Below, one piece after another: positions 24,401 through 30,400 of a stretch of DNA of 64,000 nucleotides. Within the stretch, counting starts at the first letter, position 1. The number at the start of each line of letters is the position of its first letter. Made by a program: the position numbers. Origin of the DNA: Escherichia coli. GTDB taxonomy: Bacteria; Pseudomonadota; Gammaproteobacteria; Enterobacterales; Enterobacteriaceae. The stretch is taken from NCBI RefSeq assembly GCF_030384885.1, contig NZ_CP128613.1; one strand, 5' to 3'.

Positions 24401-27400
24401 CGGCTGGGAGTTAGGCTACAGTTCCGATCTTGACCTGATCTTCCTCCATGATTGCCCAATGGATGCGATGACTGACGGCGAGCGGGAAATCGACGGGCGA
24501 CAGTTTTATCTGCGTCTGGCGCAACGCATTATGCATCTGTTCAGTACGCGAACCTCTTCCGGCATTTTGTATGAAGTGGATGCTCGACTGCGTCCGTCCG
24601 GGGCGGCGGGAATGCTGGTCACCTCTGCAGAAGCGTTTTCCGATTATCAGAAAAACGAGGCCTGGACGTGGGAACATCAGGCGCTGGTGCGTGCGCGTGT
24701 AGTGTACGGCGATCCGCAGCTCACCGCGCACTTTGACGCGGTGCGTCGCGAGATTATGACGCTGCCGCGTGAAGGTAAAACTCTGCAAACGGAAGTGCGG
24801 GAAATGCGCGAGAAAATGCGCGCTCATCTCGGCAATAAACATCGCGATCGCTTTGATATCAAAGCCGATGAAGGCGGAATTACCGATATCGAATTTATTA
24901 CCCAATATCTGGTGTTGCGCTACGCTCATGAAAAACCGAAGTTAACGCGCTGGTCAGACAACGTGCGTATTCTGGAGCTGCTGGCGCAAAACGACATTAT
25001 GGAAGAGCAGGAAGCGATGGTGCTGACCCGTGCTTACACTACGCTGCGCGATGAACTTCATCATCTGGCATTACAGGAATTGCCGGGCCATGTGTCGGAG
25101 GATTGCTTCACCGCAGAGCGTGATCTGGTGCGGGCAAGCTGGCAGAAGTGGCTGGTGGAAGAATGAAGTATGGTATTATCGCGCGCAAATTTTGAATCTC
25201 TCAGGAGACAGGAATGAAAGTAACGCTGCCAGAGTTTGAACGTGCAGGAGTGATGGTGGTTGGTGATGTGATGCTGGATCGTTACTGGTACGGTCCCACC
25301 AGCCGTATCTCGCCGGAAGCGCCGGTGCCCGTGGTTAAAGTGAATACCATCGAAGAACGTCCGGGCGGCGCGGCTAACGTGGCGATGAATATCGCTTCTC
25401 TCGGTGCTAATGCACGCCTGGTCGGGTTGACGGGCATTGACGATGCGGCGCGCGCGCTGAGTAAATCTCTGGCCGACGTCAACGTCAAATGCGACTTCGT
25501 TTCTGTACCGACGCATCCGACCATCACCAAATTACGGGTACTTTCCCGCAACCAACAGCTGATCCGTCTGGATTTTGAAGAAGGTTTCGAAGGGGTTGAT
25601 CCGCAGCCGCTGCACGAGCGGATTAATCAGGCGCTGAGTTCGATTGGCGCGCTGGTGCTCTCTGACTACGCGAAAGGTGCGCTGGCAAGCGTGCAGCAGA
25701 TGATCCAACTGGCGCGTAAAGCGGGCGTTCCGGTGCTGATTGATCCAAAAGGCACCGATTTTGAGCGCTACCGCGGCGCTACGCTGTTAACGCCGAATCT
25801 CTCGGAATTTGAAGCTGTTGTCGGTAAATGTAAGACCGAAGAAGAGATTGTTGAGCGCGGAATGAAACTGATTGCCGATTACGAACTCTCGGCTCTGTTG
25901 GTGACCCGTTCCGAACAAGGGATGACCCTGCTGCAACCGGGTAAAGCGCCGCTGCATATGCCAACCCAGGCGCAGGAAGTGTATGACGTTACCGGTGCGG
26001 GCGACACGGTGATTGGTGTGCTGGCGGCAACGCTGGCTGCGGGTAATTCGCTGGAAGAAGCCTGCTTCTTTGCCAATGCGGCGGCAGGCGTGGTGGTCGG
26101 CAAACTGGGGACATCCACGGTTTCGCCGATCGAGCTGGAAAATGCAGTACGTGGACGTGCAGATACCGGCTTTGGTGTGATGACCGAAGAGGAACTGAAG
26201 CTTGCTGTAGCGGCGGCGCGTAAACGCGGTGAAAAAGTGGTGATGACCAACGGCGTCTTCGACATCCTGCACGCCGGGCATGTCTCCTATCTGGCAAACG
26301 CCCGTAAACTGGGTGACCGTTTGATTGTCGCCGTCAACAGCGACGCCTCCACCAAACGGCTGAAAGGGGATTCCCGCCCCGTTAACCCTCTCGAACAGCG
26401 TATGATTGTGCTGGGGGCACTGGAAGCGGTCGACTGGGTGGTGTCGTTTGAAGAAGACACGCCGCAGCGCTTGATTGCCGGGATCTTGCCAGATCTGCTG
26501 GTGAAAGGCGGCGACTATAAACCAGAAGAGATTGCCGGGAGTAAAGAAGTCTGGGCCAACGGTGGCGAAGTGTTGGTGCTCAACTTTGAAGACGGTTGCT
26601 CAACGACCAACATCATCAAGAAGATCCAACAGGATAAAAAAGGCTAACCGGAAAGCGGTTCACAGATCTCGCTTCGAACCAGGCAGGCCTATTGACGCTG
26701 TTGTTTTTTCAACCTAAAGTAAAGGAACAAGGGTAAGGGAGGATTTCTCCCCCCTCTGAATTGGTTGTTAATAAGCCTGGAAACTTACTAGTAACAACAC
26801 AATCAGTATGATGACGAACTTCATCATAACCCTTTCCTTATGCAAGGCCCCTTCCTCGGGAGGGGCTTTCCCGTTTCAGCCCCTTGCTGGCTCCCCGATT
26901 GTTGATGAGCGCCGGACCCCGCGCAATGCTTTCCCTGATGCAGTTTTCTCTTCCCCGAGTCGGCTCGCAAAACGCTGTAACAACCTGATCATTTGCAGTT
27001 TTTTGTGGAACACAGATATAAAAAATCCCCGGTTTTTTGGGCCAGGGATATGTGTTAATGAAACCTTCTTGACGCTGATTTTTTTTCAACCTAAAGTAAA
27101 GGAACAAGGGTAAGGGAGGATTTCTCCCCCCTCTGAATTGGTTGTTAGTAAGTCGGGAAACTTAACAGTAACAACACAATCAGTATGATGACGAACTTCA
27201 TCATAACCCTTTCCTTATGCAAGGCCCCTTCCTCGGGAGGGGCTTTCCCGTTTCAGCCCCTTGCTGATTCCCCGATTGTTGATGAGCGCCAGACCCCGCG
27301 CAATGCTTTCTCTTATGCAGTTTTCTCTTCCCCGAGTTGGCTCGCAAAACGCTGTAACAACCTGATCATTTGTACTTTTTAGCGGAACGCAGATATAAAA

Positions 27401-30400
27401 AATCCCCGGCTTTTTGGGCCAGGGATTATTCATAGAAGAGGGTTTATTCTGTTTTTTCTTCGACGGGAGTTGTTGAGGTTAAGGGGGAAGTCAATGCCGC
27501 CAGTGAGCCGCCTGAAACACCAATTTCATTGAGCAAGGAGTCAATCAGCGGTGCCTGTGTGCGGTAAGAAAGGGCGGCAGACAATGCCTGTTCTGCCAGG
27601 TTTCCGCCACTAACGCTGCCTGATGCCGCATCCCCCGCAGCACCACCTCGGTTTAATCCATCGACCTGAATAATCTTGATGCCGTCAATGGACTTCATCG
27701 GCTCAACGGATTTCTCTATTACTGCAGGTAACGACTGTAATAGCGCCAGTTTGAATTTAAGGCTGGTTTGCTCGTCAGAAAGTACGTTGATAGCGTCGTT
27801 CAGCGCACGTTGCGCTTCTGCTTCCGCCAGGCCTTTTTTGCGTGTTGCTTCGGCTAACTCAACGATCGCCGCCGCCTGCATCTCTGCGGCTTCTTTCTCT
27901 GCTTTCGCCCGCACGGTCAGTTCAACCGCTTTGGTTTCTGCATCCTGCGCGGCAGCGATTAGGGCAACTTGTTTAGCACGATCGGCTTCTGCGGTCTGGC
28001 GAGTGGTTTCTACGTTTTGCTGGGCGCTTACCGCTTCTGCAAGTGCAAGGTTGGCACGCGCTTCCGCTTGTGACTGCTGTTCCGATTTGGCGGCAATAGC
28101 GATCGATTTCGTCTGGTTGGCGATTTCGGTGACCTGCTGCTGTTCAATCTCTTTAATGCGAACTTCACGTTCAGCTTCAACTTTTCTGGAACGGACGGCC
28201 TGTTCGCGGTCGATTTCCGTTTCCTGAATCTGTCGTTCAGCCAGAATTCGCGTCTGCTCTGCTTCCCGACGACGCTCGGCCTCAAAAGCCGCAATTTTCG
28301 CATTCTGCTCAGCGGTACGGGTTTTAACCTGCTGCTCCTGCTCAAGCGTCATAAACGCTTCTTGCTGTTCAATCTCCAGCTTCCGCGAAAGCGCATCACG
28401 GTTTTTCTCACGCACCGCAACTTCTACATCCTGTTCAACTTCGTTACGTTCGCGACGACGGCGCTCCGTCTCCTGCGTCAGCTTGGTTAAACCTTCGGCG
28501 TCAAAGGCGTTGTTAGGATTGAAATGTTCTTTCGACGTCTGGTTAAAGTTGGTAAGTGAAACGCTTTCCAGTTCCAGGCCGTTTTTCGACAGATCTTCAG
28601 CAACGGTATTTTGTACGCCCTGCACGAAGTTCTCGCGGGTATCCTGTAACTCATGCATGGTCATTTGTGCAGCTGTTGCACGGAGGGCATCGACAAATTT
28701 ATCTTCAACCAACATACGTAAGTCTTCAGGCGACAGGGTGCGTTGCCCCAGCGTCTGGGCGGCGGTGGCAATACCTTCCACTGACGGTTTTACCCGCACA
28801 AAGAAAGCGACCACGACATCGACGCGCATACGATCTTTCGTAATCAGGCTATCAATGGTTGAGCGGCTGACTTCCAGTTTCAGGGTATTCATATTGATGG
28901 GAATTATTTCATGGAAGATTGGCATCACGATTGCGCCACCGCTCATCACCACTTTTTGACCACCTAAACCAGTACGAACAAATGCTTGCTCTGCCGAAGC
29001 GCGACGATAGAGCCTGGCGAAAATAATCCCAATAATAAACAGAACGCATACGGCAATAATTGCGGTAAACATCCAGGAGGGCATAGAATTAACAATATCA
29101 TCCATTATTAAATTTCCTTTTGATTAATAAATTACAGTATTTGGGGCCAGGGATTTTTTTCCGCCAAATATCGCGTTGCAGAAAGTCGGCAAATAATTAA
29201 TACTTTGTCTCCTTTAGTGAAAGTTTTTTCTTCTTCAGGTTCCAGTAGTAAATAATGTATTTGGCCAAATTGATCGGTGAGTTTTCCTTCACAGGGGTTA
29301 CCTGAAGTGGCCTGATGTCCGGTAATTAATGCCATGCAGCCAATATAATCGTCTTCTGTAATAGCAGTGCTATGATCTCGTGGTAACCAGGGCGCAATTA
29401 CTTTACCGGTATAATGCACTGCAATAATCGTTAGCAGTAAACTGACAGGAACCACAAACAGATTTGTGAGTGGTGATTGCCAGACCATGATGCAGACCTG
29501 CTGTAGCAGGATGCCAATAAGGCCAAAAAAACCAGCATGTAAGCAGAGAACGACGAGAGCTGGCAATCTTCCAAAATTGAGATAATGAAGTGCCTGGCTA
29601 ATATGGCCTGTGGTTATGGAATCATAATGGTCAAGATGTGCATCAAGAGCACCGGAAAGCATGTGACCGCAGATAAGTGCAAAAATTTCTAAAAGGCCGA
29701 TCAAAAGTACAAAAGAAATAGCGAAAAGATAAGGGGTGTTATAGTCAGCGAATAAAATCATATGTCACTCCAATGTCCATTTAGTGACGCAATATTTATT
29801 TTGCGATAATTTCCTTGCTTACATTTATCTTTGTTAATAATAACACATGTTAGAGAAGTTCTGGAAGAGAAAGTCTTTTAATATGGTTTTTTATTTTTCA
29901 CTAAAAAGTGTGATCGGGGACAATATATTTACGCACGTTATGTTTAAAGGCACTACACTGATTGGGGAATACTGAAATCAGAAAAAGCATATGGCCTTAA
30001 AAGGTATGCGATAACCGGAGGATGTGCTTATGGATCATAGTCTTAATTCTTTAAATAATTTCGATTTCCTGGCGCGTAGTTTTGCCAGAATGCACGCAGA
30101 AGGTCGCCCGGTCGATATTCTGGCCGTTACTGGTAACATGGATGAAGAACATAGAACCTGGTTTTGCGCACGTTATGCCTGGTATTGCCAACAAATGATG
30201 CAAACCAGAGAACTTGAATTAGAACACTGATATTACGGGCCGTCTGGCCCGTTTTTGTGTTGCTTTATTCTGCTTTATCAACCGGCGGGATAGCTGGAGG
30301 AGATTGAAGTTCTGCTACCGGATTATTGCGCGCTTCCAGTTCGCTGATGCGTTGTTCCAGTAACGCCAGTTTTTCACGAGTCCGTAACAGGACTTGCGTC

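What the first reader, a model, noticed from the sequence alone, without database searches (positions are those of the whole stretch)
26690..27440. Tandem duplicated Sib/Ibs type I toxin-antitoxin units (sibD/ibsD and sibE/ibsE)
Two ~377-bp direct repeats each encode a 19-aa hydrophobic peptide on the minus strand (MMKFVIILIVLLLVSFQAY and MMKFVIILIVLLLLSFPTY) and a plus-strand sigma-70 promoter reading fully antisense through the ORF. This is the Sib antitoxin sRNA / Ibs membrane toxin arrangement known to lie between hldE and yqiK. A six-frame ORF track misses the toxins entirely because they are under 60 aa.
Basis: partly seen in the sequence, partly recalled or inferred. Interest (0 to 1): 0.45.

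Follow-up and report, generated by a model that had tools for sequence, protein, structure and literature searches.

The report
Tandem Sib/Ibs toxin-antitoxin pair
This is the well-known pair of tiny membrane-toxin genes (ibs), each silenced by an antisense small RNA (Sib), that sits between hldE and yqiK in almost every E. coli; it is ordinary and already annotated, and the only twist is that this strain carries an unusual mix of toxin/antitoxin alleles.

Summary
Observation and interpretation both hold. Two 359-nt direct repeats (26692-27050 and 27069-27427, 94.4% identical, period 377) each give a full-length Rfam SIB_RNA hit on the + strand (143 and 142.7 bits, cutoff 56). The flanks are hldE and yqiK, as in K-12. 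At least 80% of the locus is covered in 5,413 of 5,426 complete E. coli genomes, and RefSeq annotates both toxins in the identical record (strain 2013C-4282). The feature is already known.

Refinements:
- The K-12 D/E names do not transfer one-to-one. By position, unit 1 (next to hldE) is the sibE/ibsE orthologue and unit 2 the sibD/ibsD orthologue. Yet unit 2 carries the K-12 SibE recognition domain TRD1 (23/23) and an IbsE-like peptide, and unit 1 carries a third allele (…SFQAY).
- The two Sib RNAs differ at only 5 of 145 nt, all in or next to TRD1. TRD2 is identical, so cross-repression between the two units is plausible; this is an inference.
- Across 22 sampled loci, TRD1 and TRD2 types assort freely between positions. 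Some strains have one unit, or two identical ones.

Interest is low.

The parts
26692..27050 (.). Repeat copy 1 (the unit next to hldE; positional orthologue of the K-12 sibE/ibsE unit)
   Evidence: 359 nt, 94.4% identical to copy 2.: promoter-spacer sites and flanks match the K-12 sibE unit.
26692..26720 (+). Sib-1 sigma-70 type promoter: -35 TTGACG (26692-26697), 17-nt spacer, -10 TAAAGT (26715-26720)
   Evidence: promoter scan.: 34/35 identical to the 35 bp upstream of K-12 sibE. The Rfam model's first ~35 positions cover this promoter.
26727..26871 (+). Sib-1 antitoxin sRNA (145 nt). The ends are placed by homology to the annotated K-12 SibD/SibE ends.
   Evidence: RF00113, 143 bits.: alignment to the K-12 ncRNA features.: fold of -54.8 kcal/mol, z = -4.5, showing a closing P1 stem, three hairpins, a single-stranded J1/7 segment and a terminator hairpin.
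26768..26827 (-). ibs-1 toxin ORF, 19 aa MMKFVIILIVLLLVSFQAY plus stop. IbsD-like, with L4F and A17Q.
   Evidence: Pfam Ibs_toxin, 41.3 bits against a cutoff of 27.: RefSeq WP_072148302.1, 'Ibs family toxin'.
26773..26795 (+). TRD1 of Sib-1 (Sib +47..+69), projected from SibC +46..+68. It pairs with the 3' end of the ibs ORF.
   Evidence: PMC2943612 and the alignment. 19/23 identical to both K-12 SibD and SibE. Four of the five differences between Sib-1 and Sib-2 lie here and the fifth lies 2 nt upstream.
26828..26844 (+). TRD2 of Sib-1 (Sib +102..+118). It pairs with the ibs ribosome-binding site and start codon.
   Evidence: identical to TRD2 of Sib-2. The ibs ribosome-binding site AAGGAAAGGG lies opposite it.
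26898..26926 (-). Inferred ibs-1 promoter: -35 TTGCGC (26926..26921), 17-nt spacer, -10 AACAAT (26903..26898). The inferred start is about 26889-26891, and the ibs-1 mRNA then runs to about 26730.
   Evidence: conserved in the K-12 sibD and sibE units, with the -10 at the same offset as TACGAT upstream of K-12 ibsC. PMC2943612: the ibsC mRNA is about 160 nt with an 18-nt 5' overhang beyond the Sib 3' end. This is an inference, not a mapped start.
27024..27050 (-). Weaker copy of the yqiK terminator hairpin followed by a U-run, lying between unit 2 and the ibs-1 promoter. It probably blocks minus-strand read-through.
   Evidence: fold of -11.6 kcal/mol, 8-bp stem, then UUUUUU.
27069..27427 (.). 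Repeat copy 2 (the unit next to yqiK; positional orthologue of the K-12 sibD/ibsD unit)
27069..27097 (+). Sib-2 promoter: TTGACG, 17-nt spacer, TAAAGT
   Evidence: [quoted passage not shown]
27104..27248 (+). Sib-2 antitoxin sRNA (145 nt)
   Evidence: 142.7 bits.: fold of -55.9 kcal/mol, z = -5.1.: 138/145 identical to K-12 SibE, with TRD1 23/23 identical to SibE.
27145..27204 (-). ibs-2 toxin ORF, 19 aa MMKFVIILIVLLLLSFPTY plus stop. IbsE-like, with L4F and V9I.
   Evidence: 42.2 bits.: RefSeq WP_071821827.1.
27150..27172 (+). TRD1 of Sib-2 (K-12 SibE type)
27205..27221 (+). TRD2 of Sib-2 (identical to that of Sib-1)
27275..27303 (-). Inferred ibs-2 promoter: TTGCGC, 17-nt spacer, AACAAT
27401..27427 (-). 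Intrinsic terminator of yqiK; it forms the end of repeat copy 2
   Evidence: fold of -19.2 kcal/mol.

Best explanation
The interval holds two tandem, intact type I toxin-antitoxin modules of the Ibs/Sib family. It is this strain's version of the K-12 sibE/ibsE-sibD/ibsD locus between hldE and yqiK.

In each 359-nt unit a sigma-70 promoter on the plus strand drives a ~145-nt structured Sib RNA. That RNA is perfectly complementary to the ribosome-binding site, start codon and whole 19-codon ORF of an ibs mRNA. The ibs mRNA is made from a weak promoter on the minus strand, starting about 18 nt beyond the Sib 3' end.

Sib contacts ibs mRNA first through two exposed segments. TRD1 is a hairpin loop that pairs with the last ibs codons. 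TRD2 is a single-stranded segment that pairs with the translation-initiation region. Pairing then spreads, blocking ribosome binding and exposing the duplex to RNase III. If Sib is lost, the hydrophobic 19-aa Ibs peptide inserts in the inner membrane, depolarises it and lowers ATP, causing stasis.

Shown here: the sequence anatomy, family membership, synteny and RNA folds.
Taken from the K-12 and Salmonella literature: the pairing order, the RNase III step and the toxicity.
Inferred here: because the two Sib RNAs of this strain are identical from +64 to +145 (all of TRD2, the P6 loop and P1) and differ only at five TRD1-region bases, each Sib probably also represses the neighbouring ibs. In K-12 the two modules are insulated from each other.
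For: - Sib RNA family: Rfam RF00113, full-length hits of 143 and 142.7 bits against a cutoff of 56 on the plus strand only.
- Ibs toxin family: Pfam PF13956, 41.3 and 42.2 bits against a cutoff of 27, covering the whole profile.
- Synteny: collinear alignment with K-12, where sibD, ibsD, sibE and ibsE are annotated.
- Existing annotation: RefSeq annotates both ORFs as Ibs family toxins in the 100%-identical record.
- Conservation: at least 80% of the 901-nt locus query is covered in 5,413 of 5,426 complete E. coli genomes. A single or tandem unit lies between hldE and yqiK in E. albertii, cryptic Escherichia, Kluyvera and Phytobacter.
- Promoters: the Sib-2 promoter is 35/35 identical to the 35 bp immediately upstream of the K-12 sibD start, presumably the 35-bp minimal promoter tested in PMC12956327.
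- Folds: both Sib RNAs give the P1 stem, three hairpins, single-stranded J1/7 and terminator architecture, with z = -4.5 and -5.1.
- ibs promoter: the candidate is conserved and correctly placed (with PMC2943612).
- Mechanism from the literature: TRD1/TRD2 (PMC2943612); RNase III (PMC4147584); membrane depolarisation by IbsC (PMC8309996); Salmonella IbsA inhibits the Fo sector of ATP synthase (bioRxiv 10.1101/2025.05.26.656083).
- Cross-repression inference: 5 differences in 145 nt, all at Sib +45 to +63, leaving an 82-nt shared stretch. The non-cognate TRD2 duplex energy equals the cognate one at -27.2 kcal/mol, whereas in K-12 it drops from -25/-27 to about -18. Han et al. found either TRD sufficient, and found that transplanting one TRD re-targets a Sib.
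Against: Nothing argues against the identification itself. The limits are as follows.

- No expression data exist for this strain.
- The Sib ends and ibs start sites are placed by homology, not mapped.
- NCBIfam gave no hit for the 25-aa extended peptides, probably because of their length or the speed filters.
- Against the cross-repression inference: Han et al. note that SibA and SibE share +90..+113, yet SibA reportedly cannot repress ibsE. Shared TRD2 sequence therefore does not guarantee cross-reaction.
- TRD projections use SibC numbering carried over by alignment.
Confidence: 0.96

Rival explanations
1. The two modules are fully insulated, as in K-12: each Sib represses only its own ibs, and the five TRD1-region differences are enough for discrimination.
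For: K-12 Sib RNAs repress only their cognate ibs, except for ibsA (PMC2943612). All five differences between the window's Sib RNAs lie in or next to TRD1, and they lower the non-cognate TRD1 duplex from about -37 to about -19/-22 kcal/mol. SibA and SibE share most of TRD2, yet SibA does not repress ibsE.
Against: TRD2, the P6 loop, the P1 stem and J1/7 are identical between the two units, giving 82 contiguous shared nucleotides. In Han et al. a TRD2 match giving a 25-bp contiguous helix was enough to re-target SibC to ibsD. Strain S3 has two completely identical units, so insulation is clearly not obligatory at this locus.
Confidence: 0.35
2. One or both units are decaying remnants that are no longer expressed, left over from an old duplication.
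For: Some E. coli manage with a single unit at this locus: 2012C-4221, MS 21-1 and 201609. Chromosomal type I loci are sometimes degenerate (PMC4147584).
Against: Both units keep their promoters, matching K-12 at 34/35 and 35/35. Both keep full-length covariance-model matches, intact ORFs with ribosome-binding sites, intact terminators and Pfam-scoring peptides. The same peptide alleles recur unchanged in other strains and species.
Confidence: 0.03
3. The repeat is an assembly or duplication artefact, and the small ORFs are chance hydrophobic ORFs.
For: None beyond the fact that the ORFs are very short.
Against: The tandem arrangement recurs in thousands of independently assembled complete genomes and in other Escherichia species. 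Family-model E-values are 1e-30 for the RNA and 1e-10 for the peptide.
Confidence: 0.01

Closest known systems
E. coli K-12 sibE/ibsE (b4611/b4666), the hldE-proximal unit
   Same: It occupies the same position next to hldE. The Sib promoter spacer matches (34/35), and the overall architecture is the same. K-12 SibE's TRD1 and the IbsE C-terminus (…LLSFPTY) are present in this strain.
   Different: In this strain the E-type TRD1 / PTY cassette sits in the other, yqiK-proximal unit (TRD1 23/23). The hldE-proximal unit instead carries a QAY cassette (IbsD-like peptide with A17Q and L4F). The TRD2 tetranucleotide is ATGC here and ATAC in K-12.
E. coli K-12 sibD/ibsD (b4447/b4664), the yqiK-proximal unit
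   Same: It occupies the same position next to yqiK. The 35-bp promoter is identical (35/35), and the repeat ends in the same yqiK terminator.
   Different: The K-12 IbsD peptide (…VSFAAY) and its TRD1 are absent from this strain. The AAY/CTGT haplotype found at this position in K-12, O157:H7, BL21, D6 and E. albertii (7 of 7 such units) is replaced here by PTY/ATGC.
SibC/ibsC of K-12 (the experimentally dissected member)
   Same: Same family, same fold elements and the same TRD1/TRD2 layout.
   Different: It lies at a different locus (fau-serA) and as a single copy. It is about 70% identical at the RNA level (102-104 of 146 aligned columns).
Other tandemly duplicated chromosomal type I systems of E. 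coli (ldr/rdl LDR repeats, zorO-orzO/zorP-orzP)
   Same: They also combine a small hydrophobic toxin with an antisense RNA, are duplicated in tandem in one intergenic region, and vary in copy number between strains (PMC2887945; PMC4147584).
   Different: The toxin and RNA sequences are unrelated. Those antitoxins overlap only the 5' UTR, whereas Sib covers the ribosome-binding site and the entire ORF.

Membership tests
Sib antitoxin RNA (Rfam RF00113 SIB_RNA) | Covariance-model score at or above the curated gathering threshold, full length, on the strand antisense to ibs | tested here: met
   143 and 142.7 bits against a cutoff of 56, model positions 1-147 of 147, plus strand. The minus strand scores only 39.5 and 32.7 bits.
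Sib antitoxin RNA (Rfam RF00113 SIB_RNA) | Own sigma-70 promoter with an A start, and a Rho-independent terminator hairpin giving a ~140-145 nt RNA | tested here: met
   TTGACG, 17-nt spacer, TAAAGT. 35/35 and 34/35 identical to the K-12 sibD and sibE promoters. An 11-bp terminator hairpin appears in both folds. The ends are placed by homology to the K-12 annotation.
Sib antitoxin RNA (Rfam RF00113 SIB_RNA) | Complete complementarity to the ribosome-binding site and ORF of a cis-encoded ibs gene, with TRD1 and TRD2 in exposed segments | tested here: met
   The ibs ORFs 26768-26827 and 27145-27204 and their ribosome-binding sites lie wholly inside Sib 26727-26871 and 27104-27248. In the predicted folds TRD1 falls in a hairpin loop and J1/7 is unpaired.
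Sib antitoxin RNA (Rfam RF00113 SIB_RNA) | The RNA is expressed and represses ibs toxicity | not testable with these tools
   Needs northern blots or RNA-seq and co-expression assays in this strain.
Ibs type I toxin (Pfam PF13956 Ibs_toxin) | Profile-HMM score at or above the gathering threshold over the whole 19-residue profile | tested here: met
   41.3 and 42.2 bits against a cutoff of 27, profile positions 1-19 of 19. The peptides were scanned as 25-aa TTG-extended translations because the tool needs at least 20 aa. NCBIfam gave no hit.
Ibs type I toxin (Pfam PF13956 Ibs_toxin) | An 18-19 aa, almost wholly hydrophobic peptide, MMK…SF..Y, preceded by a Shine-Dalgarno sequence | tested here: met
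   The peptides align without gaps to K-12 IbsA, IbsC, IbsD and IbsE. AAGGAAAGGG lies upstream of ATGATG.
Ibs type I toxin (Pfam PF13956 Ibs_toxin) | Toxic (membrane depolarisation and growth arrest) when overproduced | not testable with these tools
   Known for IbsC (PMC8309996) and Salmonella IbsA. Not tested for these alleles.
hldE-yqiK sibD/ibsD + sibE/ibsE locus of E. coli | Synteny: two tandem units between the 3' ends of hldE and yqiK | tested here: met
hldE-yqiK sibD/ibsD + sibE/ibsE locus of E. coli | One-to-one orthology of each unit with K-12 'D' and 'E', so that the gene names can be transferred | tested here: not met
   Eighteen diagnostic sites (promoter spacer, flanks) follow position. 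The TRD1 sites follow the opposite pairing, and 9 sites are shared by both window units against both K-12 units. The same toxin allele, WP_071821827.1, is yqiK-proximal here and hldE-proximal in strain R32_14_1F.
Insulated (cognate-only) Sib/ibs pairs as described for K-12 | Both TRD1 and TRD2 differ between co-resident paralogues | tested here: not met
   TRD1 differs at 4 of 23 positions, but TRD2 is 20/20 identical between the two window units. K-12 SibD and SibE are 17/20 at TRD2.

The most novel reading that the evidence does not exclude
At the hldE-yqiK locus the two recognition modules of Sib (TRD1, which doubles as the Ibs C-terminus, and TRD2) may be reshuffled between the tandem units and between strains by short-tract gene conversion. 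If so, the 'each Sib guards only its own ibs' rule derived from K-12 is strain-specific. In this strain (identical TRD2), and more so in strains like S3 (identical units), the two antitoxins would be mutually redundant.
Probability: 0.45. Interest if true: 0.3.

Novelty: already known. Interest (0 to 1): 0.12.

Why it matters
As a finding it matters little. It correctly re-identifies a textbook type I toxin-antitoxin locus that RefSeq already annotates in this very genome.

It gives two modest lessons.
- Annotation: the K-12 names ibsD/ibsE and sibD/sibE cannot be transferred to other strains by position or by peptide similarity alone, because the units are mosaics.
- Biology: natural E. coli carry many combinations of the two Sib recognition domains, including pairs with identical TRD2 and fully identical units. 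This offers ready-made natural variants for testing how antisense RNAs discriminate between near-identical targets.

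Tried and rejected
- The listing of cluster members refuses proteins under 20 aa, so no collection-wide count of the exact peptides was possible.
- NCBIfam returned nothing for the 25-aa extended peptides. Pfam did return hits, so I treat the NCBIfam result as a length or filter effect rather than as evidence against membership.
- The first fold call failed on the 150-nt limit and was repeated with shorter ibs segments. The ibs-sense folds were only weakly better than shuffles (z = -2.1 and -1.5), so I make no claim about ibs mRNA structure.
- I tried to count how many E. 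coli genomes share the window's arrangement using megablast identity bands. Only the '99% or better' classes (1, 13 and 3 genomes) are informative. The 95-99% band mixes several arrangements, so there is no genome-wide frequency of the QAY|PTY arrangement.
- A whole-unit swap (inversion of the order of D and E) was considered and rejected. The promoter spacers and unique flanks remain positional, and only the internal cassette differs.
- Import of the region from a cryptic Escherichia clade was considered because unit 1's peptide equals that of Escherichia sp. MOD1-EC7003. It was rejected because hldE is closer to K-12 (96.7%) than to that species (91.6%).
- A permissive Rfam scan of the rest of the repeat unit found no additional RNA family.
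- Fozo 2012 (RNA Biol), the review most likely to discuss strain variation, is not in the library. Prior description of the shuffling therefore cannot be excluded.

Full report
OBSERVATION. The interval contains two direct repeat copies, 26692-27050 and 27069-27427. On the minus strand, 26768..26827 and 27145..27204 encode MMKFVIILIVLLLVSFQAY and MMKFVIILIVLLLLSFPTY, exactly as quoted. On the plus strand each copy begins with TTGACG, a 17-nt spacer and TAAAGT. The flanking genes are hldE (25214..26647, +) and yqiK (27444..29105, -).

WHAT IT IS. Rfam's SIB_RNA model (RF00113) matches both copies full length on the plus strand, at 143 and 142.7 bits against a cutoff of 56 and E about 1e-30. The minus strand reaches only 39.5 and 32.7 bits, which settles the strand. 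The two peptides, scanned as 25-aa TTG-extended translations because the tool requires at least 20 aa, match Pfam Ibs_toxin (PF13956) over the whole 19-residue profile at 41.3 and 42.2 bits against a cutoff of 27.

The window is 100% identical to E. coli strain 2013C-4282 (NZ_CP027579.1), where RefSeq already annotates both ORFs as 'type I toxin-antitoxin system Ibs family toxin'. In K-12 MG1655 the same intergenic region carries the annotated genes, in the order yqiK, sibD/ibsD, sibE/ibsE, hldE, and the window aligns collinearly with it. At least 80% of the 901-nt locus query is covered in 5,413 of 5,426 complete E. coli genomes.

A scan of species-representative genomes found the tandem pair between hldE and yqiK in E. 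albertii and Escherichia sp. E1V33. It found a single unit at the same place in Kluyvera sichuanensis and Phytobacter ursingii, and a single unit beside hldE in a Citrobacter. The locus is therefore old, and the duplication is Escherichia-wide.

ANATOMY. By homology with the K-12 ncRNA ends, Sib-1 is 26727-26871 and Sib-2 is 27104-27248, 145 nt each. Both start at an A located 7 nt after the -10 hexamer. Both fold into a closing P1 stem, three internal hairpins, an unpaired J1/7 segment (UCCUUAUGC) and an 11-bp terminator hairpin, at -54.8 and -55.9 kcal/mol with z = -4.5 and -5.1. The Rfam model's first ~35 positions are actually the promoter.

The Sib-2 promoter is 35/35 identical to the 35 bp immediately upstream of the K-12 sibD start. 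[quoted passage not shown] The Sib-1 promoter is 34/35 identical to K-12 sibE.

On the minus strand, a conserved TTGCGC, 17-nt spacer, AACAAT motif (26926..26898, and 27303..27275 in unit 2) sits where an ibs promoter should be. Its -10 lies at the same offset as a TACGAT upstream of K-12 ibsC, and it predicts a start 18-19 nt beyond the Sib 3' end. This agrees with the 18-nt 5' overhang and ~160-nt ibsC mRNA reported by Han et al. (PMC2943612). It remains an inference, not a mapped start.

Each repeat copy ends in a minus-strand hairpin followed by a U-run. The copy at 27427..27401 is the yqiK terminator (-19.2 kcal/mol). The copy at 27050..27024 is weaker (-11.6 kcal/mol) and lies between unit 2 and the ibs-1 promoter.

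MECHANISM. The following comes from the literature. Sib RNAs repress the cis-encoded ibs mRNAs. SibC contacts ibsC through TRD1 (+46..+68, a hairpin loop pairing within the ORF) and TRD2 (+99..+115, the J1/7 segment pairing with the translation-initiation region, which also needs P1 and the P6 loop). Either domain suffices, and transplanting either SibD domain into SibC re-targets it to ibsD (PMC2943612). Pairing blocks translation, and the duplex is probably processed by RNase III (PMC4147584). IbsC overproduction depolarises the membrane within minutes (PMC8309996). Salmonella IbsA binds the a and b subunits of Fo and lowers ATP (bioRxiv 10.1101/2025.05.26.656083). All sequence features required for this mechanism are present in both window units.

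WHERE THIS STRAIN DIFFERS FROM K-12.
(i) Naming. By position, unit 1 (next to hldE) corresponds to sibE/ibsE and unit 2 (next to yqiK) to sibD/ibsD. The promoter-spacer sites and unique flanks agree with this (18 'positional' sites). But unit 2's TRD1 is 23/23 identical to K-12 SibE, and its peptide is IbsE with L4F and V9I. Unit 1 carries a third cassette, encoding …VSFQAY (IbsD with L4F and A17Q; Q17 also occurs in K-12 IbsA). Nine further sites are shared by both window units against both K-12 units, which suggests homogenisation within the genome.

(ii) Specificity. Sib-1 and Sib-2 differ at only 5 of 145 positions: Sib +45, +50, +52, +62 and +63, which are window 26771, 26776, 26778, 26788 and 26789. 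These fall in the last seven ibs codons and cause V14L, Q17P, A18T and two synonymous changes. From +64 to +145 the two RNAs are identical, so TRD2, the P6 loop and J1/7 do not discriminate. K-12 SibD and SibE differ at 15 positions, including +113, +115 and +116 inside J1/7. Predicted non-cognate TRD2 duplexes equal cognate ones here (-27.2 kcal/mol), whereas in K-12 they drop from -25/-27 to about -18.

From Han et al.'s sufficiency results I infer that each Sib in this strain probably also represses the neighbouring ibs. The caveat is that SibA and SibE share +90..+113, yet SibA reportedly cannot repress ibsE. I give cross-repression roughly 0.55-0.65.

POPULATION CONTEXT. I sampled 22 loci: 16 E. 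coli and 6 from other species or species-level lineages. TRD1 / C-terminus cassettes fall into four main types (PTY, AAY, QAY, HAY) plus rarer ones, and TRD2 into several tetranucleotide types.
- The common arrangement is PTY next to hldE and AAY next to yqiK. It occurs in K-12, O157:H7, BL21, D6, K71-77, 10_253 and E. albertii.
- The window is QAY|PTY.
- MFDS1022581 is HAY|PTY, and R32_14_1F is the reverse, PTY|HAY.
- S3 has two completely identical Sib/ibs units.
- 2012C-4221, MS 21-1, 201609 and SCPM-O-B-8794 have a single unit.

PTY and QAY each occur with TRD2 types ATAC, ATGC and CTAT. This four-gamete pattern between segments about 35-50 nt apart implies short-tract exchange or recurrent mutation. 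AAY, by contrast, is always linked to CTGT at the yqiK side (7 of 7).

The exact configuration in the window is rare. One genome matches the 901-nt locus at 99% or better, 13 match Sib-1, and 3 match the junction plus Sib-2 segment. The sample was partly chosen from window-like hits, so these frequencies are not population estimates. Regional divergence from K-12 is high but within E. coli: hldE 96.7% at the nucleotide level (99.8% protein), yqiK 92.5% and the intergenic region 91.7%.

COMPARISON AND NOVELTY. This is a member of the Sib (RF00113) / Ibs (PF13956) type I toxin-antitoxin family at its canonical hldE-yqiK locus. Every sequence-testable defining feature is met. Expression and toxicity could not be tested. 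What is not met is one-to-one orthology with the K-12 'D' and 'E' units, and the K-12 property that both TRDs differ between co-resident paralogues.

Copy-number variation of ibs genes among strains is already documented (PMC2887945). I found no paper in the library describing cassette shuffling at this locus, but the most relevant review (Fozo 2012) is not held.

VERDICT. The feature is already known and already annotated. Interest is 0.12. The most novel reading still open is strain-specific loss of insulation through modular gene conversion of the recognition domains, with probability about 0.45 and interest about 0.3 if true.

Noticed in passing
L026 (2012C-4221), L031 (MS 21-1), L034 (201609), L012 (SCPM-O-B-8794): Some E. 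coli genomes have only one Sib/Ibs unit between hldE and yqiK. This is as expected from unequal crossing-over between the tandem repeats. The surviving unit carries different cassettes in different strains: QAY, PTY, ATY and PTY respectively.
   Followed up: partly
L023 (E. coli S3), units at locus 1039-1098 and 1415-1474: The two tandem Sib RNAs of strain S3 are 100% identical (0 differences in 144 nt), and both toxins are WP_001387082.1. The pair is therefore fully redundant, the extreme case of non-insulated units.
   Followed up: partly
window 26808..27113 (+); L024 1079-1384: A 101-aa plus-strand ORF runs from inside Sib-1 across the spacer into unit 2. RefSeq annotates its counterpart in strain E200086 as a hypothetical protein (WP_077757011.1). 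It overlaps the Sib RNA, its terminator and the next promoter, so it is most likely a spurious gene call.
   Followed up: no
L032 (K71-77) and L033 (10_253), yqiK: The flotillin gene yqiK next to the locus is annotated as a pseudogene in two sampled strains (frameshift in one, internal stop in the other). yqiK is also unusually divergent between the window and K-12 (92.5% nucleotide identity, against 96.7% for hldE).
   Followed up: no
window 30686-30834 (+): An FMN riboswitch (RF00050, 120.9 bits) lies about 3 kb downstream. It is presumably the ribB leader and is ordinary.
   Followed up: no
window 4553-4625 (-): A tRNA gene (RF00005, 73.1 bits).
   Followed up: no
NZ_CP027579.1 genome-wide (H31): A 145-nt Sib-1 query finds 6 places in this strain's chromosome, against five annotated sib genes in K-12. 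The median is 6 per E. coli genome, with a range of 2 to 11, so Sib copy number varies widely.
   Followed up: no
L020 (Escherichia sp. MOD1-EC7003) 1044-1278: The hldE-proximal Ibs peptide of this cryptic-clade Escherichia is identical to the window's unit-1 peptide (MMKFVIILIVLLLVSFQAY), although hldE is only 91.6% identical. The allele is therefore either old or has been exchanged between lineages.
   Followed up: partly
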